Position numbers and translations under genes: made by a program. DNA of 64,000 bases, taken from the sequence record OR896822.1; one strand, written 5' to 3'. Shown piece by piece: positions 11,539 to 56,583 of the stretch. This DNA comes from Salmonella phage vB_SenS-3. The number at the start of each line of letters is the position of its first letter. The stretch's first letter is position 1. A model generated the notes under the pieces. The model had not been told where the DNA came from. It made no database searches and worked only from the letters and a program-made list of their open reading frames with translations.

Positions 11539-12014
11539 TGTCGGTTTTCCACATATATACAGATGGTGCATGTAAGGGCAATCCTGGTTTAGGTGCGTGG
11601 GGATTCGTTGTCTATAATGATAATGATGATCGTATTGGCTCTAAATCTGGCTTCAGCCATAAAACTACTAATAACGAAATGGAACTTACTGCAATTGTTG
11701 AAGTTCTTCGTTGGTCTACTAAGAAAGATAATCGTCCAGTAATTATCTACACTGATTCTGCTTACTGCAAAAATGGTATGGAAAGCTGGATGTGGTCTTG
11801 GCAGAAGAAAGGATGGAAGAAAGGAGATGGTGAAACTCCTCTTAATCTAGAACTCTGGCAAGAAGCGTTTAAACTAACTCAACAGTATATTAATTTCCAT
11901 GATACTAACCCAACCTTTGTTAAGGTTAAAGGTCACTCAGGTATTCGTGGTAATGAAGAAGTTGATGCTCTATGCAATACTGTAATTACTGAGCAAGAAC
12001 TTGCTGAGATGTAA
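11538..12014 (+). CDS. rnhA: ribonuclease H
   Basis: IYTDGAC..G, NNEMEL, YTDS and GHSG..NEEVD motifs of RNase H1; ATG 11538. Confidence 0.8.
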   Translation: MSVFHIYTDGACKGNPGLGAWGFVVYNDNDDRIGSKSGFSHKTTNNEMELTAIVEVLRWSTKKDNRPVIIYTDSAYCKNGMESWMWSWQKKGWKKGDGETPLNLELWQEAFKLTQQYINFHDTNPTFVKVKGHSGIRGNEEVDALCNTVITEQELAEM

Positions 12015-12034
12015 TAAATAAATTAAAAATTCAC

Positions 12035-12063
12035 TTGCTTAAAGCCCTCGAATTTATTATAAT
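12035..12063 (+). promoter_or_regulatory. early-type promoter (TTGCTT N17 TATAAT)
   Basis: A-rich UP-like tract AAAAATTCA upstream. Confidence 0.55.
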
Positions 12064-12090
12064 ATTCGTATTGAAAGTGAGGAGGGCTTT

Positions 12091-12369
12091 ATGCGAATTT
12101 ACAACTCAAATTCATTAGGATTTAAACCTTTGAGAAAACGCGCACAATCTCCGCGTCAGATCAGAAAGGCAAATATTGGTGAGCCAGAAACTAGGCTTCC
12201 ACCACCTCCGGAGCAACGTCTAGTTTACTTAGACGAAGAATTAGCCGAAAGGGAACGTAAAGCTCAAGAAGAAATTGAGCGTAAGAAACTGTGTACTGCT
12301 CCTGCATATAATAAGGGTGGTTATCAGTACGTTTCCAGTGAGGAACAAGCTAAGATGATCGGCAGATAA
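12091..12369 (+). CDS. hypothetical basic protein
   Basis: 92 aa; own promoter upstream. Confidence 0.45.
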   Translation: MRIYNSNSLGFKPLRKRAQSPRQIRKANIGEPETRLPPPPEQRLVYLDEELAERERKAQEEIERKKLCTAPAYNKGGYQYVSSEEQAKMIGR

Positions 12370-12385
12370 TTTTTAAAAAATTCAT

Positions 12386-12414
12386 TTGCTAAACGCTTCA
12401 AAATTTCGTATAAT
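12386..12414 (+). promoter_or_regulatory. early-type promoter (TTGCTA N17 TATAAT)
   Basis: Same architecture. Confidence 0.55.
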
Positions 12415-12452
12415 ATATCTCATAAATTGATCAACAAAAAGGAAAACAAATA

Positions 12453-12968
12453 ATGGCTAAGCAGAAAAACGCAAAAACTCAGGCAGCTCCGGCAGTTAAA
12501 ACTTTCGCTCAGACCGAAGCCAATCGTAAGGCTCGTCTGGAACGTCATCTGCGTAAGCATCCTACTGATGCTCAGGCTCAGACTGCCCTGAAGTCTGCGG
12601 CTCCGGTTCGCCAGAAGCCGAAGGCCAAGAACTCTACTCGCGCAACTGCTAAGCAGGTTGTGTTCATCAAGGGTGAAGGTCATAAGTCTGTACCGGTAAC
12701 TCTGAGCTTTAACGGTGGTGCTGAGATGTTCGCCCGCAACGGTATGGCTCTGAAAGACTACGAAAAAGCAGTCAATCAGAAGCGTAAGCCAATGGCTGAC
12801 GTAATGCGTGAATCGCGTGGACAGTTTGGCTCCGTTAAACCGAATATCTTCGGTGTAGAGTACAGCCGTGACAACGTTCGCGCTCTGTGCTACGGTATCG
12901 GTATTAAGTTTACTGGTGCTTCTGATCGTAAATCCGCTAAACCTACTCGTAAGCGTAAAGCGAAGTAA
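12453..12968 (+). CDS. hypothetical highly basic protein (possible nucleic-acid binding)
   Basis: 171 aa, Lys/Arg/Ala rich; codon usage shifted to CGT/CTG/GGT; own promoter and GNRA hairpin downstream. Confidence 0.55.
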   Translation: MAKQKNAKTQAAPAVKTFAQTEANRKARLERHLRKHPTDAQAQTALKSAAPVRQKPKAKNSTRATAKQVVFIKGEGHKSVPVTLSFNGGAEMFARNGMALKDYEKAVNQKRKPMADVMRESRGQFGSVKPNIFGVEYSRDNVRALCYGIGIKFTGASDRKSAKPTRKRKAK

Positions 12969-12976
12969 TGATTGAT

Positions 12977-12990
12977 GGGGCGAAAGCCCC
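12977..12990 (+). terminator. GNRA-tetraloop hairpin GGGGC GAAA GCCCC (terminator/RNA-stability element candidate)
   Basis: Immediately after stop of 12453..12968; no clear U-tract. Confidence 0.4.
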
Positions 12991-13029
12991 ATATACTAAC
13001 TCTTTCTCTGACTAATCAAGGATATTTTT

Positions 13030-13245
13030 ATGTTCTCTAAGAAACCACGTTCCGTTACTGAAATCGTTGCTTCCTTTACCACTATTACTGATGAACTTCA
13101 AGCTCGTATTGAAGCTGACCAGAAAACTGCTGCTGATATTCAGAAACAGCAGGAAGAACTCGCTCTGAAACTGGCTGAAACCAATAAGAGTGAAAAATCT
13201 GCTCAAACTATTAAGGAAAATATCCTTAAACTGCTGGGCAAGTAA
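13030..13245 (+). CDS. hypothetical coiled-coil protein
   Basis: 71 aa; followed by GGGGGCGAAAGCCCCC hairpin. Confidence 0.45.
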   Translation: MFSKKPRSVTEIVASFTTITDELQARIEADQKTAADIQKQQEELALKLAETNKSEKSAQTIKENILKLLGK

Positions 13246-13254
13246 TTTAAATCA

Positions 13255-13271
13255 GGGGGCGAAAGCCCCTC
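13255..13271 (+). terminator. GNRA-tetraloop hairpin GGGGGC GAAA GCCCCC followed by T-rich tract
   Basis: After stop of 13030..13245. Confidence 0.45.
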
Positions 13272-13286
13272 TTATTTGGAGAAACT

Positions 13287-13499
13287 ATGCGTAACTTCGT
13301 TGCAAAGAATGATTTTAACCGTGCTAGCACTCACAAGTCTGCTAGAGACTACACTCGTCTTTCTAAACATGAGCTTCTAGAAGAAATCATGGAAGAAAAC
13401 TGGGATGTTAGTGAAAATGGAACAGACCTGTTTGAAGAAGAGGAACTTCCTCTGAAAGACCCCAAACAGTGGGAGTCTATTAAAGAGACAGCTCTTTAA
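13287..13499 (+). CDS. hypothetical acidic protein
   Basis: 70-aa ORF. Confidence 0.45.
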   Translation: MRNFVAKNDFNRASTHKSARDYTRLSKHELLEEIMEENWDVSENGTDLFEEEELPLKDPKQWESIKETAL

Positions 13500-13529
13500 T
13501 AGTTTTCTACAACAATAAAGGACATAATT

Positions 13530-14231
13530 ATGAAATTCAAGCCCTTTGGTATGCTGGACATTGAATCTCTAGGTACTCCAGGAAATTGCGGTACTACTCA
13601 TATTGCAATGCCTTCTTTCGCTTTTGTAGCGATGCACGGAATTGATAAAGATCCTGATCTGGTATTCGTTACTCTAGACGTTCAAGATCAGCTTAATGCG
13701 GGTGCTAAGGTAACTGCCTCTACTATTGCATTCTGGATGGATCAAGCTAAAAACAGTCCATCTGCGCTCCATATTATGGAGGCTCTAAATGGTCGTAATC
13801 CTAAACTGATTGCCTTCCGTGATGGTAAGCATCACTGCACTAATGACGTAGGCTCTAATTATGCTGCCTTCTCTATGGCTCAGAACATTATGGAATTGTC
13901 TCTAGGAGATAATGCTCTGTATTATGGCAATGGCCCAGAGTTTGATATGACAATCTACTCTGCAAATACGTTCCATGCCGGAACCCATGAAGAAATAGTT
14001 CCGTGGAAATTCTGGAACTTAGGTAACGTTCGATCTTTCCGTAATCAGTGGATGCAAGCTGGTTATAGCTATAAAGATCTAGAAGCCGAAGGTGCTAGCT
14101 GGGCAAAAGCTAAAATGGAAAAGATGGACACCATTCGTTATGGAATCTATCCTGTGAAGCATGATCCAGCATTCGATGCTTTAGTTGAAAGTTATTGTGT
14201 AGCCGTCATGATCGAAAAAATCAAAATTTGA
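13530..14231 (+). CDS. DEDDh-type 3'-5' exonuclease-like protein (putative)
   Basis: LDIES (Exo I-like D-x-E) near N-terminus and HDPAFDAL (Exo III-like H-x4-D) near C-terminus. Confidence 0.45.
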   Translation: MKFKPFGMLDIESLGTPGNCGTTHIAMPSFAFVAMHGIDKDPDLVFVTLDVQDQLNAGAKVTASTIAFWMDQAKNSPSALHIMEALNGRNPKLIAFRDGKHHCTNDVGSNYAAFSMAQNIMELSLGDNALYYGNGPEFDMTIYSANTFHAGTHEEIVPWKFWNLGNVRSFRNQWMQAGYSYKDLEAEGASWAKAKMEKMDTIRYGIYPVKHDPAFDALVESYCVAVMIEKIKI

Positions 14232-14232
14232 T

Positions 14233-14261
14233 TTGCTTTCAGCTCCAAAATTCTGTATAAT
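14233..14261 (+). promoter_or_regulatory. early-type promoter (TTGCTT N17 TATAAT)
   Basis: Same architecture. Confidence 0.55.
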
Positions 14262-14301
14262 ATATTCATAAATTTGAGAGAACAACAAAAGGAAAATAAT
14301 T

Positions 14302-14484
14302 ATGCCAGTATCTAAAAACGTCCGTAAAAATGGTAAAGTAGCAAAACGTAACCTGGGTCTGCGTCGTATGGCTGAGCGTCAGTCCGGCATCCAGAAAATC
14401 TTTAATGTGCTGAATCGCGCCAACCCGAATATTGATAACAGTTCTGATACTGTTCTGCGCACTCTGCTGGCAATCGGTCTGTAA
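14302..14484 (+). CDS. hypothetical small basic protein
   Basis: 60 aa; own promoter. Confidence 0.45.
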   Translation: MPVSKNVRKNGKVAKRNLGLRRMAERQSGIQKIFNVLNRANPNIDNSSDTVLRTLLAIGL

Positions 14485-14537
14485 TAGACCATTTTTAAAA
14501 CAAATTCAAATCTCAAACTTCATATAAGGAAGAAATA

Positions 14538-15176
14538 ATGACTACTCGTATCTCTAAAACTCGTGCTCTGGCAACTATCAAGTCTCTAGAAGCTAAAATC
14601 CGTAAAGCTACTGAACAACAGCTTTTGATTGCTGTTGGTGAAGGTAAGGATAAGAACCAAGTTGTAGTTGGCGCTGCAATCGAAGTAGATGCTCTGTCTA
14701 CTCGTATTAAGACTGATTTCCAGTCTCTGTTGGATATGATGTCCCAGCGTGATCATCTGAAAGCAGCGCTGATCAAGAGCAATGCTGAAACTGTTGTAGA
14801 GATCGGTTCCCGATCTATGACTGTTGCGGAAGCAATCGAAGCTAAGCGTTCTATGGAACTCAAAGCTCAGTTGCTGGCTAACATGCGTAAGCAGTTCCAT
14901 GCTGCTACTGTTAAGTTTAACACTCAGAAGGCTCAGTTTGATAACAAGTATGAGCGTTTGCAGGATACCATGGCTACCCGCGACAAGAAGACTTCTGAGG
15001 ATGAAGTTAAGATGCAGCTTAACCTGCTGGAACTCAAGAACACTCCGTTCCTGATCGATCCGCTGGAGCTGGAAAAGCTGATCAAGCAACACGACGAAGA
15101 ATACCAGGATTTTGCAACCAACGTTGACTTTGTTATGTCTGAGTCCAACGCCTCTACTTTTATCGAAGTAGAGTAA
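14538..15176 (+). CDS. hypothetical coiled-coil protein
   Basis: 212 aa, helical heptad-rich. Confidence 0.5.
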   Translation: MTTRISKTRALATIKSLEAKIRKATEQQLLIAVGEGKDKNQVVVGAAIEVDALSTRIKTDFQSLLDMMSQRDHLKAALIKSNAETVVEIGSRSMTVAEAIEAKRSMELKAQLLANMRKQFHAATVKFNTQKAQFDNKYERLQDTMATRDKKTSEDEVKMQLNLLELKNTPFLIDPLELEKLIKQHDEEYQDFATNVDFVMSESNASTFIEVE

Positions 15177-15566
15177 TGATTTAAAAGACTAGTAAATCGG
15201 TAGACGAAAGCCCAAGCATCTTACCTCGCAGCAGCGGTTGAAATACGAGGTTAAATAAGACCGCTGACCATACTATAAAGTATAATCTATTGGAGATTAT
15301 CTTAATTTATTTTTCGGCAGATGTTGCATCTGTCAAAATAAAACAAGACGTCGTTGGTAGTACCAACACAACTTCAAAGATCAACGCTCAAGTATGAAAG
15401 CTGAAAAGTTAAAAGCACTCAAACTTCTAACCTTCTAAAGCTAAAAGATGCAAAGTATTCGTTGATGATTCAAACCCTAGATCAAAGGTACATGGCTCAT
15501 AAGATATGGCCTGTGGCGCCTCTAGGCTATTTATCGGTTTACTAGTTTCACAATTTAAAAATGTAT

Positions 15567-15595
15567 TTGCTAATTAGTTTAGTTTTCTGTATAAT
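15567..15595 (+). promoter_or_regulatory. early-type promoter (TTGCTA N17 TATAAT)
   Basis: Same architecture. Confidence 0.55.
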
Positions 15596-15625
15596 ATATT
15601 TTTAAATTGATGAGACGAGGCTATT

Positions 15626-17607: not shown

Positions 17608-18237
17608 TAATAGTGGGGTGCCGAAACCACTTATGTAACAACACTGCCGTCCTAGTATAATAGGTATTATTAGGGCTTCACCGCCTGAAGATGTGGGTTC
17701 GAGTCCCACGGTCGGAAAGAGTTGGATAACTGGTGCTTCTAATGGCGAAGCAATCGCAGGCAGTTGCGCACTGCCAAAACCACGCGGTAGTTGGTTCCAG
17801 GCTAACCAACCACTCTTGAAAAGTATATACTACGGTTTTGCTTGTTCAGGAAGCTTCGCATCGAAAATCGGAGGTGCGATTTTATCAGACCGCGTGGAGG
17901 ACGTCTCTCCGTTAAGTGACGAAAAGTGGGACGATTCAGGTAGAGCTGGATATGGAACACCTATACATATGCGGAGTGCGCACAAAGCATATTGCGGTGG
18001 TACTAAACGAAATTAGGAGTCATGACCTGCACAAGTTTAGTATGTCATAACCGATGTACATTCAGTACAAAAACCACTGAAGCTAAGATAGATAGTCACC
18101 TTGACTTAAACTGGAAGATATTGTCTGACGGAAGGGCTGCAGAGCTTAATCTGAGGGGGCTGACCCTACCTACCGTCGGGTATCTTTAAGAGTTCTTACG
18201 AGAACTCTTAAAGATACCTAAACATTAAGGAATACTG
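17608..18237 (+). ncRNA. candidate structured RNA (GC-rich, tRNA-like T-arm at 5' end, several hairpins)
   Basis: No RBS or promoter-proximal start; GTGGGTTCGAGTCCCAC T-arm at 17693-17709 without matching acceptor stem; local GC rise; many stems. Confidence 0.3.
18179..18218 (+). other. perfect 18-bp stem / 4-nt loop hairpin
   Basis: GGTATCTTTAAGAGTTCT / AGAACTCTTAAAGATACC inverted repeat just upstream of the ORF at 18238. Confidence 0.7.
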
Positions 18238-19068: not shown

Positions 19069-20013
19069 ATGTTTACTAAAAACACTAAAGAACTGACTTC
19101 TGAGCAAAAAGTAATTCGTACTATTAAACGTTGGGGTGTTGGTGCTGCTATTAGTCTTGGTGCTCTTATTCTGGCTCTCAATTCCTATACAGTTGTTCAG
19201 GATGGTACTGTTAAGACCCAAACCTTCCTGGGTAAAGTTAGCCCTAATCCTGTATTGCCAGGCTTCCATATTGTTAACCCATTTGCTTCTTTTGATACTT
19301 TTAGTACGAAAGATATTTCCATGAAACTGGATAAACTTCAGGTTCCTAGCCAGGATAAGTTTAAGTCCACTGTTGACATTACCGTTATGTTGCAGTTTGA
19401 TGGTGCTAAAGCTCCTATGAACCGTGTTAACGCAGGTACTCAGGATCAAGCTCTGAACAAGTACGTTGAAGAGAAGATGCTGTCTACGATTCGTGAGTTT
19501 GGTAAGTCTGTACCAAAAGCACAAGATCTGTTCGACGCTAAGATTCAGGCTCAACTGCAAACCGCTATTCAGCAAGAAGTAGAAGAGTATGCGCGTCCTT
19601 ATGGTTACACCGTTAAGCAAGTATTCCTTCAGGATATTACTCTGCCACCGGTAATCATGGAACAGGTACAGAACACCAAAGTTCGTGAAGAACAAGTTAA
19701 CGCTGCAAAAGCTGAACTGGCTCGTGTTGAACAAGAAGCACAGCAGAAAGTTAAGCAAGCTGAGGCGGATCGTTCCGCTCGTGAAAACATGGCAGTAGCT
19801 AACGAACGTGACGCAGATGCTAAACTGTACGCAGCTAAGAAAGAAGCTGAAGCTAACGCCGCTCTGCAACGTACCATTACTCCTGAAATGATTCGTTGGA
19901 AGCAGCTGGAAGTTGAAATGCTTCGTGCTGAAAAATACCAAGGTGGTGTACCACAGACTGTTGTCGGTACTGGCTACGATGGTCAAATGATCATGGATAT
20001 GCGTAACAAGTAA
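19069..20013 (+). CDS. SPFH/band-7 (prohibitin/HflK-like) membrane protein
   Basis: N-terminal TM then VVQDGTVKTQTFLGK band-7 core and long coiled-coil Ala/Glu/Gln-rich C-terminus. Confidence 0.65.
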   Translation: MFTKNTKELTSEQKVIRTIKRWGVGAAISLGALILALNSYTVVQDGTVKTQTFLGKVSPNPVLPGFHIVNPFASFDTFSTKDISMKLDKLQVPSQDKFKSTVDITVMLQFDGAKAPMNRVNAGTQDQALNKYVEEKMLSTIREFGKSVPKAQDLFDAKIQAQLQTAIQQEVEEYARPYGYTVKQVFLQDITLPPVIMEQVQNTKVREEQVNAAKAELARVEQEAQQKVKQAEADRSARENMAVANERDADAKLYAAKKEAEANAALQRTITPEMIRWKQLEVEMLRAEKYQGGVPQTVVGTGYDGQMIMDMRNK

Positions 20014-43830: not shown

Positions 43831-43862
43831 ATATTTATAAATTAATGAGAGAGGAAGTTCAA

Positions 43863-44123
43863 ATGGAAAACATGACTAAAACTGAAATGGCAAACGTATT
43901 GGCTATCCTGCTGGACATGCAAGGGTTTGAAGGTCAGCTCATGAAGATGTCTATTCCGGCAATGAAAAAGATGTATGATTCTCTGAACAAGAATGCTATG
44001 GCATTCAACCTAGCAAAACAGGAAGCACGTTTTGCGAAAGAGCATCAGGCAACTGCCGAACGTCGTGCAGCATCTTTTGAGCGTGAAGTTAAGCAACTGA
44101 AAGGTAAGAAAAATGGAAGCTAA
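43863..44123 (+). CDS. hypothetical protein
   Basis: ATG 43863 after GAGAGGAAG RBS. Confidence 0.45.
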   Translation: MENMTKTEMANVLAILLDMQGFEGQLMKMSIPAMKKMYDSLNKNAMAFNLAKQEARFAKEHQATAERRAASFEREVKQLKGKKNGS

Positions 44124-44271: not shown

Positions 44272-44552
44272 TGATTATAGAAATTTTAATTGGATTGCTG
44301 GTTCTTACTACTTTAGCAGCAATTGGAGGAATCATTGGCATTCTTAATGCTAGTAAAAATATGGAAGCAATGAAGGCTACCAACAATGCGCTTTGGGAAA
44401 AATATATAGCTGCGGAAAAAGATATCGAGGACACACAAAGACGTTCAGATCTTCTTAAAGAAAAGCTAAAGAATGTTGAAACTCTTGTTGGTAACACTAA
44501 ACTTCCTATTAAAGTCCTGCGCGCTCAGGTAATCACGGAGATTAAGAAATGA
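44271..44552 (+). CDS. hypothetical membrane protein
   Basis: ATG 44271 after AGGAG; TM then coiled coil. Confidence 0.4.
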   Translation: MIIEILIGLLVLTTLAAIGGIIGILNASKNMEAMKATNNALWEKYIAAEKDIEDTQRRSDLLKEKLKNVETLVGNTKLPIKVLRAQVITEIKK

Positions 44553-44794
44553 TGTTAATTATCTTAGCTTTTTATCTGGTTATTGTTGGTGTTCTGGTTA
44601 CTAAGTATCACACCTGGACTCCGAAGAACGTTGGTAAAGTAGCACTGTTTGTTCTGCCAGTTCCTATCATCATCGTTGCAATGCTGTTCACGATGTTGGC
44701 CGGTAAAGTGACAAAAACTGACGTTAAACGCATTGTAGACGAACTACAGCAATCTTCTGACATGATCGAGGATATTCTGAAAGATGAAGCTTAA
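44549..44794 (+). CDS. hypothetical membrane protein
   Basis: 81 aa, two TM helices. Confidence 0.4.
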   Translation: MMLIILAFYLVIVGVLVTKYHTWTPKNVGKVALFVLPVPIIIVAMLFTMLAGKVTKTDVKRIVDELQQSSDMIEDILKDEA

Positions 44795-55815: not shown

Positions 55816-56067
55816 ATGCAAAACGTTATCACCGCACCGAAAGTAGGTCAATCCGTTTTTATTCCTTTCGTTACTAAAACGGATGAATTAACTGGAAAAG
55901 CTGAACGTATTAAAGGTGCGGCGCTTGATCCCTTTGATAAAATTGAAGCGGTATACGCGGAAACGGAACGCAGTAACAACGGCAAGCCAATTTATAACGT
56001 TCGCGTTAAATCTGGCGACGTTGTAAAAATCATTCAGAAAGATGATAAATGGCAAGCTATTAGCTAA
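55816..56067 (+). CDS. hypothetical protein
   Basis: 83-aa ORF with GGAG RBS. Confidence 0.4.
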   Translation: MQNVITAPKVGQSVFIPFVTKTDELTGKAERIKGAALDPFDKIEAVYAETERSNNGKPIYNVRVKSGDVVKIIQKDDKWQAIS

Positions 56068-56166: not shown

Positions 56167-56583
56167 ATGTCTAACGTTAAAACCGAAAAAACCGCAAAAT
56201 TCGCTTGGAACGAAGAAAACACTGAAAAAGCTGTTTCTATGTATTCTGAAATGGTCGCTAAAAGCGGAATTGAATTTGCTAACAGTGACGGCCTGAAAGA
56301 AATTGCCGCCGCCGTTGGTGCTGCTAGTCCGGTGTCTGTACGTTCTAAACTGACAAGCGCAAAAGCCTATCAGAAAAGCGATAAACCTCGCAAAGTTGGC
56401 GGCGGTAGCTCAATTCGTAAAGCTCACTATGTGCGTGTTATTGCAAAACATGCCATCGACGCTGGCGTTATTAAAGACGCTGATGACTTGGCAAGCCTTG
56501 AAAGTGCTAAACTGGAAACACTGGACGCCGTAGCGCAATTATTAGGCGTAGCGGAGGAAGTAAAACAGGCCGCAGGTGAATAA
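56167..56583 (+). CDS. hypothetical protein
   Basis: 138-aa ORF, Ala-rich; hairpin AGCGGGG AATATT CCCCGCT follows. Confidence 0.45.
   Translation: MSNVKTEKTAKFAWNEENTEKAVSMYSEMVAKSGIEFANSDGLKEIAAAVGAASPVSVRSKLTSAKAYQKSDKPRKVGGGSSIRKAHYVRVIAKHAIDAGVIKDADDLASLESAKLETLDAVAQLLGVAEEVKQAAGE

What the first reader, a model, noticed from the sequence alone, without database searches (positions are those of the whole stretch)
12386..15176. Run of small basic proteins with host-optimal codon usage and GNRA-tetraloop hairpins
Genes at 12453, 13030, 14302 and 14538 switch to CGT/CTG/GGT/AAA-rich codon usage typical of highly expressed E. coli genes, unlike neighbouring AT-rich ORFs. Each has its own strong promoter, and two are followed by near-identical GGGGCGAAAGCCCC hairpins (12977 and 13255; a related GACGAAAGCCC at about 15200). 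This suggests very abundant early proteins, possibly nucleoid-binding or host-takeover factors, with a shared RNA stability or terminator element.
Basis: seen in the sequence. Interest (0 to 1): 0.55.

Follow-up and report, generated by a model that had tools for sequence, protein, structure and literature searches.

The report
Top-expressed T5 early genes plus hidden RNA
The flagged genes really are among the most heavily expressed early genes of a T5-like phage, which is ordinary, but the last of them is followed by an unannotated, strongly conserved ~360-base structured RNA that accompanies this gene family in many large phages.

Summary
The window is a T5-like phage (Epseptimavirus). The region holds homologues of T5 genes T5.089 to T5.085. 

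**Codon bias: confirmed.** The four genes have CAI 0.56-0.60, against a background of 0.28±0.09, and rank 1-4 in the window. In the related phage Bas33 the three homologues present rank 5-7 of 135 genes by CAI, beside the D5 DNA-binding protein, the major capsid protein and SSB. In published RNA-seq they rank 4th, 6th and 14th by mRNA level.

**Details that are wrong:**
- Only two of the four proteins are basic.
- AAG, not AAA, is the enriched lysine codon.
- Only two T5-type promoters exist (12386, the P-H207 homologue, and 14233), not four.

**Hairpins.** The two GGGGC-loop-GCCCC hairpins are real. Among relatives the stem is invariant but the loop varies (GAAA, GAGA, GUAA, UUCU, AGAA, UUUA, UUUC), so GNRA identity is not the selected feature. 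The U-tailed copy marks a 75-fold mRNA drop in Bas33. The "third hairpin" near 15200 is not a hairpin.

**The unannotated RNA.** That site lies inside a ~360-nt structured RNA (15186-15548). It has a closing helix, a pseudoknot, about 11 NUYAAAG heptads and a conserved loop, with strong covariation and no Rfam match. A heptad array follows g212 homologues in 47 of 51 diverse phage loci, which lie in tRNA clusters.

**Function.** The function of the proteins and of the RNA is unknown.

The parts
12386..12414 (+). T5-type early promoter (TTGCTA, 17 nt, TATAAT), homologue of T5 promoter P-H207. An A-rich leader and an AAGGA Shine-Dalgarno follow it up to 12452.
   Evidence: Consensus scan, 10 of 12 matches. 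The T5 record annotates 'promoter P-H 207' directly upstream of T5.089. Sequence read.
12453..12968 (+). g171 = T5.089 homologue: 171 aa, pI 10.9, Pfam DUF7022, CAI 0.596. It ends in the tandem stop TAATGA.
   Evidence: DUF7022, E = 1.5e-79. The AF2 model is poor and mostly disordered (pLDDT 63). The Bas33 homologue has 7677 TPM.
12975..12992 (+). Hairpin 1: AU-GGGGC-GAAA-GCCCC-AU. No U-tract follows it.
   Evidence: -13.8 kcal/mol, z = -3.9. In relatives the stem is invariant and the loop is GAAA, GAGA, AGAA, UUCU or UUUA. The flanking AU/AU pairs swap to UA/UA, which is compensatory.
13030..13245 (+). g71: 71 aa, predicted coiled coil, CAI 0.561. An accessory gene present or absent among T5-like phages and bracketed by the two hairpin copies. 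Records mis-annotate it as 'tail tape measure protein'.
   Evidence: phrog_2380, function unknown; present in 19 of 28 sequences; absent in T5 and Bas33. Annotation seen.
13254..13280 (+). Hairpin 2: AGGGGGC-GAAA-GCCCCU followed by CUUAUUUGG. This is the intrinsic-terminator-like end of the g171(-g71) unit.
   Evidence: -15.7 kcal/mol, z = -3.7. In relatives the loop is GAAA, GUAA or UUUC. In Bas33 the homologous hairpin separates 7677 TPM from 102 TPM.
13287..13499 (+). g70 = T5.088 homologue: 70 aa, acidic, CAI 0.37. It corresponds to the N-terminal part of the exonuclease family, which is fused into one protein in Sugarland-type phages.
   Evidence: phrog_255 profile positions 75-131; DUF7230; a 334-aa fused gene in phage Sugarland.
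13530..14231 (+). DEDD-type 3'-5' exonuclease (T5.087 homologue), CAI 0.34. Many records mis-annotate it as 'metallopeptidase'.
   Evidence: Pfam Rv2179c-like, E = 1.3e-7; phrog_255, exonuclease.
14233..14261 (+). Second T5-type early promoter (TTGCTT, 17 nt, TATAAT). Its leader is nearly the same as that of the 12386 promoter.
   Evidence: Sequence read. The T5 record annotates an unnamed promoter upstream of T5.086.
14302..14484 (+). g60 = T5.086 homologue: 60 aa, pI 11.9, CAI 0.558. Tandem stop TAATAG.
   Evidence: phrog_5252, function unknown. The Bas33 homologue has 3368 TPM.
14538..15176 (+). g212 = T5.085 homologue: 212 aa, pI 6.0, CAI 0.573. A helical protein with SNAxT and MTVAEAI motifs, a remote relative of DIP1984 / PDB 3KDQ. 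Mis-annotated as 'tail fiber protein'.
15186..15548 (+). Unannotated structured RNA of about 360 nt. Closing helix: 15187-15203 with 15527-15547. Pseudoknot stem 1: 15223-15227 with 15247-15251. Pseudoknot stem 2: 15233-15238 with 15260-15265. Variable hairpins: about 15302-15370. About 11 NUYAAAG heptads: about 15372-15460. Three-tier 3' hairpin: 15476-15526, with the near-invariant loop UCAUAAGAUAUG at 15497-15508.
   Evidence: The gap is more conserved than the flanking genes. Fold z = -5.8. nhmmer hits occur 3' of distant g212 homologues. Covariation is shown, heptad periodicity, and the covariance-model search. No Rfam match.

Best explanation
**Two high-output early units (shown).** The region holds two early transcription units of a T5-like phage.
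- Unit 1: the P-H207-type promoter (12386) drives g171 and, in this phage, the accessory gene g71. The unit ends at a GC-stem hairpin with a U-rich tail (13254-13280).
- Unit 2: a near-identical promoter and leader (14233) drives g60 and g212. It runs straight into a ~360-nt structured RNA (15186-15548) that starts 10 nt after the g212 stop codon.

**Why the codons look host-optimal (inferred).** The four genes use host-preferred codons, strong AAGGA ribosome-binding sites and TAAT or tandem stops. The likely reason is that they are among the most heavily expressed phage genes, the same class as the D5 DNA-binding protein, SSB and the major capsid protein. Host-tRNA-matched codons would allow maximal translation early, before phage tRNAs accumulate.

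**Hairpins (partly shown).** The GGGGC/GCCCC hairpins act through their stem. The U-tailed copy is a terminator or 3'-end barrier. The copy without a U-tract probably only insulates or stabilises the message and allows read-through into g71. The GNRA loop is incidental.

**Protein and RNA function (not shown).**
- My best guess is that g171 (DUF7022, basic, disordered) binds nucleic acid stoichiometrically.
- My best guess for g212 is that it works together with the RNA encoded at its 3' end, possibly binding its heptad array as a multimer, in a process tied to the phage tRNA region.
For: **Identity and synteny.**

**Codon bias.**. In Bas33 the genome-wide CAI ranks are 5-7 of 135, next to D5, the major capsid protein and SSB, and CAI correlates with TPM at rho 0.38-0.43 (p about 1e-5).

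**Expression.** RNA-seq TPM values from PMC13250531.

**Promoters.**

**Hairpins.** Searches show they are real. One search shows the stem invariant, the loop variable, and the tail U-rich only for hairpin 2.

**RNA.**
- The gap has 5-10% variable columns, against 27% in g212 and 59% at its third codon positions.
- nhmmer E-values reach 4e-21 downstream of homologues whose proteins are only 38-42% identical.
- 93.8% of cells are paired against 80.8±1.1 in shuffles (0 of 500). 16 pairs have double changes against 7.6±1.6.
- Mix-and-match duplex energies: closing helix -24.2 for own partners against -8.8±4.0 across clades; pseudoknot stem 2 -11.6 against -5.3±2.8.
- Conserved G·U pairs fix the strand.
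- Heptad arrays follow 47 of 51 diverse loci.
- In the covariance-model search, 32 of 33 hits sit on the same strand just 3' of the gene.
Against: - There are no protein-level data. The expression data come from a Tequintavirus relative at a single time point (20 min), not from this phage.
- In Bas33 the exonuclease gene after the terminator is again well expressed (3569 TPM), yet I see no promoter for it. The simple terminator picture is therefore incomplete; processing or differential stability may be involved.
- Hairpin 1's read-through behaviour is inferred only from the missing U-tract.
- No experiment shows that the RNA accumulates or that g212 binds it. g212 is not basic (pI 6.0).
Confidence: 0.75

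Rival explanations
1. The four products are abundant nucleoid-binding or host-takeover proteins, and the GNRA-tetraloop hairpins are one shared, sequence-specific RNA stability element.
For: - The genes are highly expressed early genes.
- g171 and g60 are very basic, pI 10.9 and 11.9.
- g171 is predicted to be largely disordered, like many nucleic-acid binders.
- The most highly expressed Bas33 gene is a DNA-binding protein, D5.
Against: - g71 and g212 are not basic.
- T5's characterised host-takeover functions are pre-early genes such as A1, A2 and dmp (established knowledge; see also the text of PMC13250531). This is the early region next to RNase H, an exonuclease and the tRNA genes.
- The tetraloop is not conserved as GNRA.
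- The third 'hairpin' is not one.
- g212 travels with an RNA and with tRNA clusters in unrelated phages.
Confidence: 0.2
2. The conserved stretch after g212 is a DNA-level element rather than an RNA: an array of heptad iterons serving as an origin, a centromere-like site or an operator. The model is the 7-bp heptad arrays bound by the omega repressor of pSM19035. The binding protein would be g60 or g212.
For: - Tandem 7-nt repeats, about 11 copies, occur in all clades.
- Heptad DNA iterons bound cooperatively by small proteins are an established mechanism (omega/pSM19035; from memory).
- g60 is a small basic protein encoded just upstream.
Against: - Long-range helices covary, and several conserved G·U pairs would be A·C mismatches on the other strand. 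One pair is U·G in 14 of 14 sequences and another in 13 of 14.
- There is a covarying pseudoknot stem.
- The element always has the same orientation as g212 and, in rV5-like phages, abuts a tRNA gene. That layout fits co-transcription and RNase P processing.
- g60 is not conserved alongside g212 outside T5-like phages.
Confidence: 0.12
3. The genes encode virion components, as many GenBank records say ('tail fiber protein', 'tail tape measure protein', 'virion structural protein'). On this reading the high codon adaptation reflects structural-protein abundance.
For: - The annotations appear in many records.
- PHROG 1491 is labelled 'tail fiber'.
- Particle preparations of phage phiR2-01 contained many non-structural proteins, including D5 (PMC8624392).
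Against: - The genes lie in the early region behind T5-type early promoters, far from the late structural block.
- A 71-aa protein cannot be a tape measure. The real one in Bas33 is a 3.7-kb gene.
- The g212 model has no fibre-like fold; its best match is 3KDQ.
- The labels trace back to an unsupported T5 annotation that was then propagated.
Confidence: 0.04
4. The codon bias is a leftover of recent horizontal acquisition from an enterobacterial host and has nothing to do with expression.
For: The codon usage resembles that of the host's highly expressed genes.
Against: - GC content is only 39-49%.
- The homologues found come from phages or phage-like contigs apart from a few bacterial records.
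- The bias is conserved between Tequintavirus and Epseptimavirus and tracks mRNA abundance across the whole genome.
Confidence: 0.03

Closest known systems
Bacteriophage T5 early promoters (P-H207 class) and T5 genes T5.089 to T5.085
   Same: The gene order is the same (RNase H, T5.090, T5.089..., T5.085, gap, T5.084) at 85% DNA identity. The T5 record places promoter P-H 207 upstream of T5.089 and an unnamed promoter upstream of T5.086. P-H207 is one of the classic very strong T5 promoters (Gentz and Bujard 1985; from memory).
   Different: This phage carries an extra gene, g71, plus a second hairpin copy. None of the T5 gene products has a known function. I found no paper that mentions them.
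Intrinsic terminators, and the very stable intercistronic tetraloop hairpins of phage T4 (Tuerk et al. 1988; from memory)
   Same: A short GC stem capped by a tetraloop sits directly after highly expressed cistrons. The U-tailed copy coincides with a large drop in transcript level.
   Different: The loop sequence is free among relatives, so no special tetraloop is selected. Hairpin 1 lacks a U-tract. Expression resumes downstream without a visible promoter.
DIP1984 family (NCBIfam NF038048; PDB 3KDQ, Corynebacterium diphtheriae, function unknown)
   Different: g212 itself does not score on the NCBIfam model; one relative scores E = 0.0028. g212 is about 60 residues longer. No function is known for either protein, and I did not test whether an RNA follows the DIP1984 genes.
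RNAs that present repeated short motifs to multimeric proteins: the TRAP-binding trp leader with 11 (G/U)AG repeats, and CsrB/RsmZ with GGA repeats (from memory)
   Same: About 11 evenly spaced short repeats lie in a mostly single-stranded stretch framed by structured domains.
   Different: The repeat is a 7-nt NUYAAAG unit, not a triplet or a GGA loop. No binding protein is known. The RNA is about 360 nt with a pseudoknot and a 17-25-bp closing helix, and it is phage-encoded and tied to one protein family.
Phage-associated structured ncRNAs found beside tRNA genes (GOLLD, ROOL, drum)
   Same: A large structured RNA of unknown function, encoded by phages within or beside tRNA clusters.
   Different: No Rfam model, including these, matches at E <= 10. 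This RNA is always 3' of one particular protein gene and contains a heptad array.

Membership tests
Highly expressed, translationally optimised gene class | Codon adaptation clearly above the rest of the genome | tested here: met
   z = 3.2-3.6 against 75 ORFs. Ranks 5-7 of 135 genome-wide in Bas33.
Highly expressed, translationally optimised gene class | High measured expression | tested here: met
   mRNA only, and in the relative Bas33: TPM ranks about 4, 6 and 14. Protein abundance was not testable with these tools.
T5-type sigma-70 early promoter | -35 TTGCTW, 17-nt spacer, -10 TATAAT, A-rich upstream region, present in front of each of the four genes | tested here: not met
   Present before 12453 and 14302 only. 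Absent before 13030 and 14538.
Intrinsic (Rho-independent) terminator | GC-rich stem-loop directly followed by a U-tract | tested here: met
   Hairpin 2 (13254-13280) meets the criterion. Hairpin 1 (12975-12992) has the stem but no U-tract, so it does not.
Intrinsic (Rho-independent) terminator | Drop of transcript level across the element | tested here: inconclusive
   The drop is 75-fold across the homologous hairpin in Bas33. Only gene-level counts are available, and the next gene but one is high again.
GNRA-tetraloop motif as the conserved functional element | The GNRA loop sequence is conserved among homologues | tested here: not met
   Loops seen: GAAA, GAGA, GUAA, UUCU, AGAA, UUUA, UUUC. 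The stem is invariant.
Pfam DUF7022 (g171) | Match above the Pfam gathering score | tested here: met
   266.5 bits against a cutoff of 27, E = 1.5e-79.
DIP1984 family / 3KDQ fold (g212) | Match to the family HMM above its cutoff | tested here: not met
   g212 gets no hit. One family member scores E = 0.0028.
DIP1984 family / 3KDQ fold (g212) | Same fold and shared sequence motif | tested here: met
Phage tail fibre or tape-measure protein (record annotations) | Structural-module location and a fibre or tape-measure fold and length | tested here: not met
   The genes lie in the early region. The g212 fold is a helical bundle matching 3KDQ. g71 is only 71 aa.
Any Rfam 15 RNA family (including tmRNA, 6S, GOLLD, ROOL, drum) | Covariance-model match | tested here: not met
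   No match at gathering score or at E <= 10. None recurs at the homologous place in 20 diverse loci. ARAGORN finds no tmRNA.
Structured non-coding RNA (generic) | Conserved base pairs with compensatory changes, strand-specific G·U pairs, and conservation above neutral sites | tested here: met

The most novel reading that the evidence does not exclude
The g212 (T5.085) family protein and the ~360-nt heptad-repeat RNA encoded directly 3' of it form an undescribed, widely distributed phage ribonucleoprotein module. It is embedded in tRNA gene clusters of T5-like, My1-like and rV5/PVP-SE1-like phages and of Bacillus and marine phages, and it occurs in at least one bacterial chromosome. The roughly 11 NUYAAAG heptads would be bound by a multimer, either g212 itself or a sequestered host RNA-binding protein or nuclease. 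The module would act on translation, on tRNA or on RNA turnover during early infection.
Probability: 0.3. Interest if true: 0.8.

Novelty: new member of a known kind. Interest (0 to 1): 0.6.

Why it matters
It confirms that T5-like phages tune codons, leaders, stop signals and terminators for a handful of very highly expressed early genes. One of them sits behind the classic P-H207 promoter.

What matters more:
- **Unknown top-expressed genes.** Three of the ten or so most strongly expressed and best-adapted genes of a model phage still have no known function. They also carry misleading structural annotations that have spread through hundreds of records.
- **An overlooked RNA.** T5 and many other large phages carry an unannotated structured RNA with a regular heptad array. 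It is conserved better than the protein genes around it and is locked to one protein family within tRNA regions.

This gives a concrete, testable entry point into what phage tRNA regions do beyond supplying tRNAs.

Tried and rejected
- **Literature.** Searches for T5.085 to T5.089, DUF7022, DIP1984, 3KDQ, TTCAAAG heptads and T5 stable or non-coding RNAs found nothing relevant.
- **phiR2-01 proteomics.** The paper's supplementary tables are not held, so protein abundance could not be checked.
- **Sequence searches.** PDB sequence searches gave only weak coiled-coil noise apart from 3KDQ. Pfam, NCBIfam and PADLOC give no named family for g60, g71 or g212.
- **g171 structure.** The model is too poor (pLDDT 63) for a fold search.
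- **afdb50 Foldseek library.** Not available.
- **Tandem Repeats Finder.** It does not see the degenerate heptads; autocorrelation does.
- **MAFFT alignment A3.** It does not keep the outer closing helix or pseudoknot stem 2 in register between clades. I therefore used a mix-and-match duplex test instead.
- **RNAduplex on 230-nt arms.** I tried it to detect closing helices in distant loci. It was uninformative even for known cases and I discarded it.
- **General rule 'high-CAI gene followed by strong hairpin'.** It does not hold in this window (rho = -0.08).
- **tmRNA.** I considered it because of the closing helix, pseudoknot and A-rich centre. I rejected it: there is no tRNA-like domain, ARAGORN and Rfam are negative, and there is no conserved reading frame.
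- **Small-ORF reading of the gap.** I rejected it: the only ORF (15290-15397) spans the one poorly conserved patch.
- **Bas33 deletion as the cause of the low bas33_0072 counts.** Rejected: that laboratory's deletion lies elsewhere, at 69-79 kb.


Full report
**What the window is.** The region 12000-15600 is 99.9% identical to Salmonella phage vB_SenS-3 (Demerecviridae, Epseptimavirus). It is about 85% identical to T5-type Tequintaviruses, and 444 phage records match it. It lies in the early region, between thymidylate synthase and RNase H on one side and the tRNA cluster on the other. ARAGORN tRNA genes from 17.6 kb onward.

The genes map onto T5 as follows:

| Window gene | Coordinates | T5 homologue |
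|---|---|---|
| g171 | 12453-12968 | T5.089 |
| g70 | 13287-13499 | T5.088 |
| exonuclease | 13530-14231 | T5.087 |
| g60 | 14302-14484 | T5.086 |
| g212 | 14538-15176 | T5.085 |

g71 (13030-13245) has no counterpart in T5 itself.

**Codon usage.** The four flagged genes score CAI 0.596, 0.561, 0.558 and 0.573. The 75 other plus-strand ORFs of at least 80 aa average 0.276 (sd 0.089, maximum 0.529), so z = 3.2-3.6 and the four rank 1-4 in the window.

Raw codon fractions agree without any reference table (focus vs background): CTG 71% vs 18%, CGT 76 vs 47, GGT 75 vs 48, CCG 62 vs 16, ATC 69 vs 28, CAG 83 vs 45, TAC 80 vs 38. The claim 'AAA-rich' is wrong, because AAG makes up 58% of lysine codons against 33% in the background.

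All four genes end in TAAT, and three have tandem stops: TAATGA, TAATAG, TAATGA. My first ORF caller picked a 190-aa antisense shadow ORF (12420-12992) instead of g171.

Only g171 (pI 10.9) and g60 (pI 11.9) are basic. g71 has pI 8.0 and g212 has pI 6.0.

**Is the bias tied to expression?** A 2026 PNAS paper (PMC13250531, Dataset S1) gives TPM values for phage Bas33 (HildyBeyeler, a Tequintavirus) at 20 min after infection. The first-replicate values are:

| Bas33 gene | Equivalent | TPM |
|---|---|---|
| bas33_0071 | g171 | 7677 |
| bas33_0072 | g70 | 102 |
| bas33_0073 | exonuclease | 3569 |
| bas33_0074 | g60 | 3368 |
| bas33_0075 | g212 | 8541 |
| neighbours | | about 60-1800 |

I fetched the whole Bas33 genome and computed CAI for 135 CDS. 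The top seven were:

| Rank | Gene | CAI |
|---|---|---|
| 1 | D5-type DNA-binding protein | 0.714 |
| 2 | major capsid protein | 0.674 |
| 3 | SSB | 0.563 |
| 4 | bas33_0046 | 0.562 |
| 5 | bas33_0075 (g212) | 0.531 |
| 6 | bas33_0071 (g171) | 0.473 |
| 7 | bas33_0074 (g60) | 0.428 |

CAI correlates with TPM: Spearman 0.38 (n = 123) and 0.43 for early genes alone, p about 1e-5. The core of the observation, and the reading 'very abundant early products', therefore hold at the mRNA level in a close relative. I could not reach proteomic tables.

**Promoters.** Only two T5-type promoters lie inside the finding.
- TTGCTA-17-TATAAT at 12386-12414. The T5 record calls its homologue 'promoter P-H 207'.
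- TTGCTT-17-TATAAT at 14233-14261. It is annotated but unnamed in T5.

Their leaders are nearly the same: cataaatt(t)ga...aacaaaaaggaaaa...ATG. Nothing promoter-like precedes g71 or g212, so they are second cistrons.

**The hairpins.** GGGGCGAAAGCCCC occurs exactly twice in 64 kb, at 12977 and 13256. Chance expectation is 0.16. Both copies fold far better than shuffles.

I compared 28 T5-like sequences.
- The GGGGC/GCCCC stem never varies.
- The loop after g171 is GAAA, GAGA, AGAA, UUCU or UUUA.
- The loop before g70 is GAAA, GUAA or UUUC.
- The pairs extending hairpin 1 swap from AU/AU in this phage to UA/UA in Tequintaviruses.

The stem, not a GNRA loop, is therefore what is kept.

g71 is present in 19 of the 28 sequences and absent in 9, including T5 and Bas33. 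Where g71 is absent there is a single hairpin. Where it is present it is bracketed by two copies, like a cassette.

Only the copy in front of g70 has a U-rich tail (UCUUAUUUGG or UCAUAUUUUGG). That copy is the one across which Bas33 mRNA falls 75-fold. The drop is not a mapping artefact of that laboratory's 10-kb deletion, which lies elsewhere.

One thing stays unexplained. The exonuclease gene two genes further on is again at about 3500 TPM, with no recognisable promoter in between. Processing or differential stability probably contributes. There is no general rule in this window linking CAI to a strong downstream hairpin (rho = -0.08).

**The proteins.**
- **g171.** It is Pfam DUF7022 (E = 1.5e-79). 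It stays next to RNase H and the exonuclease even in Sugarlandvirus and an Aeromonas phage. Its AF2 model is poor (pLDDT 63) apart from an N-terminal helical hairpin. A profile search of 1.8 billion proteins shows that the N-terminal module (...NRxARLxRHLKKHPNDxQA...) recurs in many small basic proteins, all of them only DUF7022.
- **g70.** It matches the N-terminal part of the exonuclease family profile, which is one fused protein in phage Sugarland.
- **The 'metallopeptidase'.** It is a DEDD 3'-5' exonuclease.

The labels 'tail fiber', 'tape measure' and 'virion structural protein' seen in many records have no support.

**The 'third hairpin' and what it belongs to.** GACGAAAGCCC near 15200 forms no significant local hairpin (z = -0.3). 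The 446-nt gene-free stretch after g212 is unusual in several ways.
- Its length is constant, 443-447 nt in 25 of 27 T5-like loci.
- It is more conserved than the genes around it. Variable columns are 5-10%, against 27% in g212 and 59% at its third codon positions. The exception is a variable patch at 15302-15351.
- The plus strand folds at -102.7 kcal/mol against -75.2±4.7 for shuffles (z = -5.8), with its two ends paired.
- A nucleotide profile of the gap finds the same element, on the same strand, directly 3' of g212 homologues in distant phages. These include My1 and DU_PP_V, phages of about 146-148 kb (one contig has the length of PVP-SE1), and others. E-values reach 4e-21 although the proteins are only 38-42% identical.
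- A loop-based pattern hit 28 viral contigs. 27 are true instances, all in these phage groups.

**Structure of the RNA (window coordinates).**

| Element | Coordinates |
|---|---|
| Closing helix, 17-25 bp | 15187-15203 with 15527-15547 |
| Conserved box GGUWAGCGAAG | just 3' of the closing helix 5' strand |
| Pseudoknot stem 1 | 15223-15227 with 15247-15251 |
| Pseudoknot stem 2 | 15233-15238 with 15260-15265 |
| Variable hairpins | about 15302-15370 |
| About 11 degenerate NUYAAAG heptads | about 15372-15460 |
| Three-tier 3' hairpin | 15476-15526 |
| Near-invariant loop UCAYAAGAUAUG | 15497-15508 |

**Covariation support.**
- 93.8% of cells are paired against 80.8±1.1 in column shuffles (0 of 500).
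- 16 pairs carry double changes against 7.6±1.6 in shuffles (0 of 500).
- Versions with the 3' partner slid by 1-3 columns pair only 34-59%.
- Each 5' strand pairs well only with its own 3' strand. The closing helix scores -24.2 against -8.8±4.0 kcal/mol across clades. Pseudoknot stem 2 scores -11.6 against -5.3±2.8.
- Conserved G·U pairs place the RNA on the g212 strand.

**Heptad periodicity and breadth.**
- Lag-7 autocorrelation is significant in the main clades, z = 3.6-6.4. It is weaker (z about 2) in one clade where an inserted hairpin interrupts the array.
- A heptad array exceeding the 99th percentile of 604 control blocks lies just downstream of 47 of 51 diverse g212 homologues.
- The same holds for the Bacillus-phage and Tepidibacter copies. 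The strongest heptad-periodic spot in the whole 64-kb window is at 15373.
- A covariance model of the 3' domain gave 33 hits at E <= 1. 32 of them lie on the plus strand, 180-900 nt after the homologue's stop, which argues that even the weak hits are real.

**Novelty checks for the RNA.** No Rfam 15 family matches, at gathering score or at E <= 10. None recurs at this position in 20 diverse loci. Those loci are full of tRNA genes, and in several a tRNA starts right after the closing helix. The T5 reference record annotates nothing here. I found no paper describing it.

**How it most likely works.**

*Shown.* There are two strong early promoters with matched leaders. The cistrons are codon-optimised and highly transcribed. 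A conserved GC-stem hairpin with a U-tail marks the end of the abundant g171 message. A covarying structured RNA begins 10 nt after the g212 stop.

*Inferred.* Codon optimisation serves very high translation using host tRNAs early in infection. Hairpin 1 allows read-through into g71, whereas hairpin 2 terminates or blocks 3' decay. The RNA is made as the 3' part of the g60-g212 transcript and is trimmed at the closing helix or, in rV5-like phages, by tRNA processing.

*Speculative.* g171 coats nucleic acid. g212 or a host factor binds the heptad array as a multimer.

**Rivals.** I considered four alternatives: nucleoid or host-takeover proteins, DNA-level heptad iterons, virion proteins, and horizontally acquired codon usage. 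I judge all of them less likely, for the reasons given in their entries.

**Verdict.** It is wrong on several details. Its explanation is half right: the products are abundant early ones, but nothing shows a nucleoid role or a GNRA-specific element. Taken alone this is an ordinary feature of a well-studied phage family. The stretch immediately after the flagged region adds value. It holds a well-supported, apparently undescribed structured RNA that is coupled to one of the phage's most highly expressed genes of unknown function.

Noticed in passing
window 13287-13530; Bas33 locus L007 2125-2390: In Bas33 RNA-seq the small gene between the g171 homologue and the exonuclease (bas33_0072) has about 100 TPM. 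Its neighbours have 7677 and 3569 TPM. No sigma-70-like promoter is visible upstream of the exonuclease. An 11-bp AU-rich hairpin (window 13477-13502) overlaps the g70 stop codon and might protect a processed 5' end.
   Followed up: partly
window 12975-13280: g71 is a presence/absence polymorphism among T5-like phages, present in 19 of 28 sequences compared. When present it is bracketed by two copies of the same hairpin, like a small gene cassette inserted at the terminator.
   Followed up: partly
window 12420-12992, minus strand: A 190-aa antisense ORF fully overlaps g171 and is longer than the real gene. It is a shadow ORF of a strongly codon-biased gene and fooled a length-based gene caller.
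   Followed up: yes
window 13030-13245, 13530-14231, 14538-15176: Misleading product names have spread through hundreds of GenBank records. A 71-aa protein is called 'tail (length) tape measure protein'. The DEDD exonuclease is called 'metallopeptidase'. g212 is called 'tail fiber protein'. g171 is called 'virion structural protein' or 'swarming motility protein'.
   Followed up: partly
window 12453-12650 (g171 residues 1-66): The N-terminal basic module of DUF7022 (...NRxARLxRHLKKHPNDxQA...PRKxPKVKG) recurs in more than 100 small proteins (60-170 aa) in a 1.8-billion-protein library. It looks like an independent, widespread domain of unknown function.
   Followed up: partly
window 55816-56067, 56167-56583, 44549-44794, 43845-44123, 19069-20013: These ORFs also show raised CAI (0.44-0.53). 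The first two are followed by strong GC hairpins (TTCCCC...GGGGAA and GCGGGGAATATTCCCCGC). They may be further members of the highly expressed class.
   Followed up: no
window 17645-17718: ARAGORN calls a 'tRNA-SeC (tca)' here, and Rfam scores the same spot as a weak tRNA (33 bits). By synteny it lies in the stretch that the T5 record labels as the stable RNA of unknown function 'rnaX', upstream of tRNA-Arg.
   Followed up: no
locus L039 6001-6900 (Tepidibacter hydrothermalis chromosome): A g212 homologue sits in a bacterial chromosome with no obvious prophage genes within 6 kb. It is still followed by a heptad array and by a weak hit (E = 0.08) to the RNA 3'-domain model.
   Followed up: partly
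loci L027 and L032, downstream of the g212 homologue: In two T5-like phages the distance from g212 to the next conserved gene is 962 nt instead of about 446 nt. In Bas33 the next gene contains an intein. This boundary seems to attract mobile insertions.
   Followed up: no
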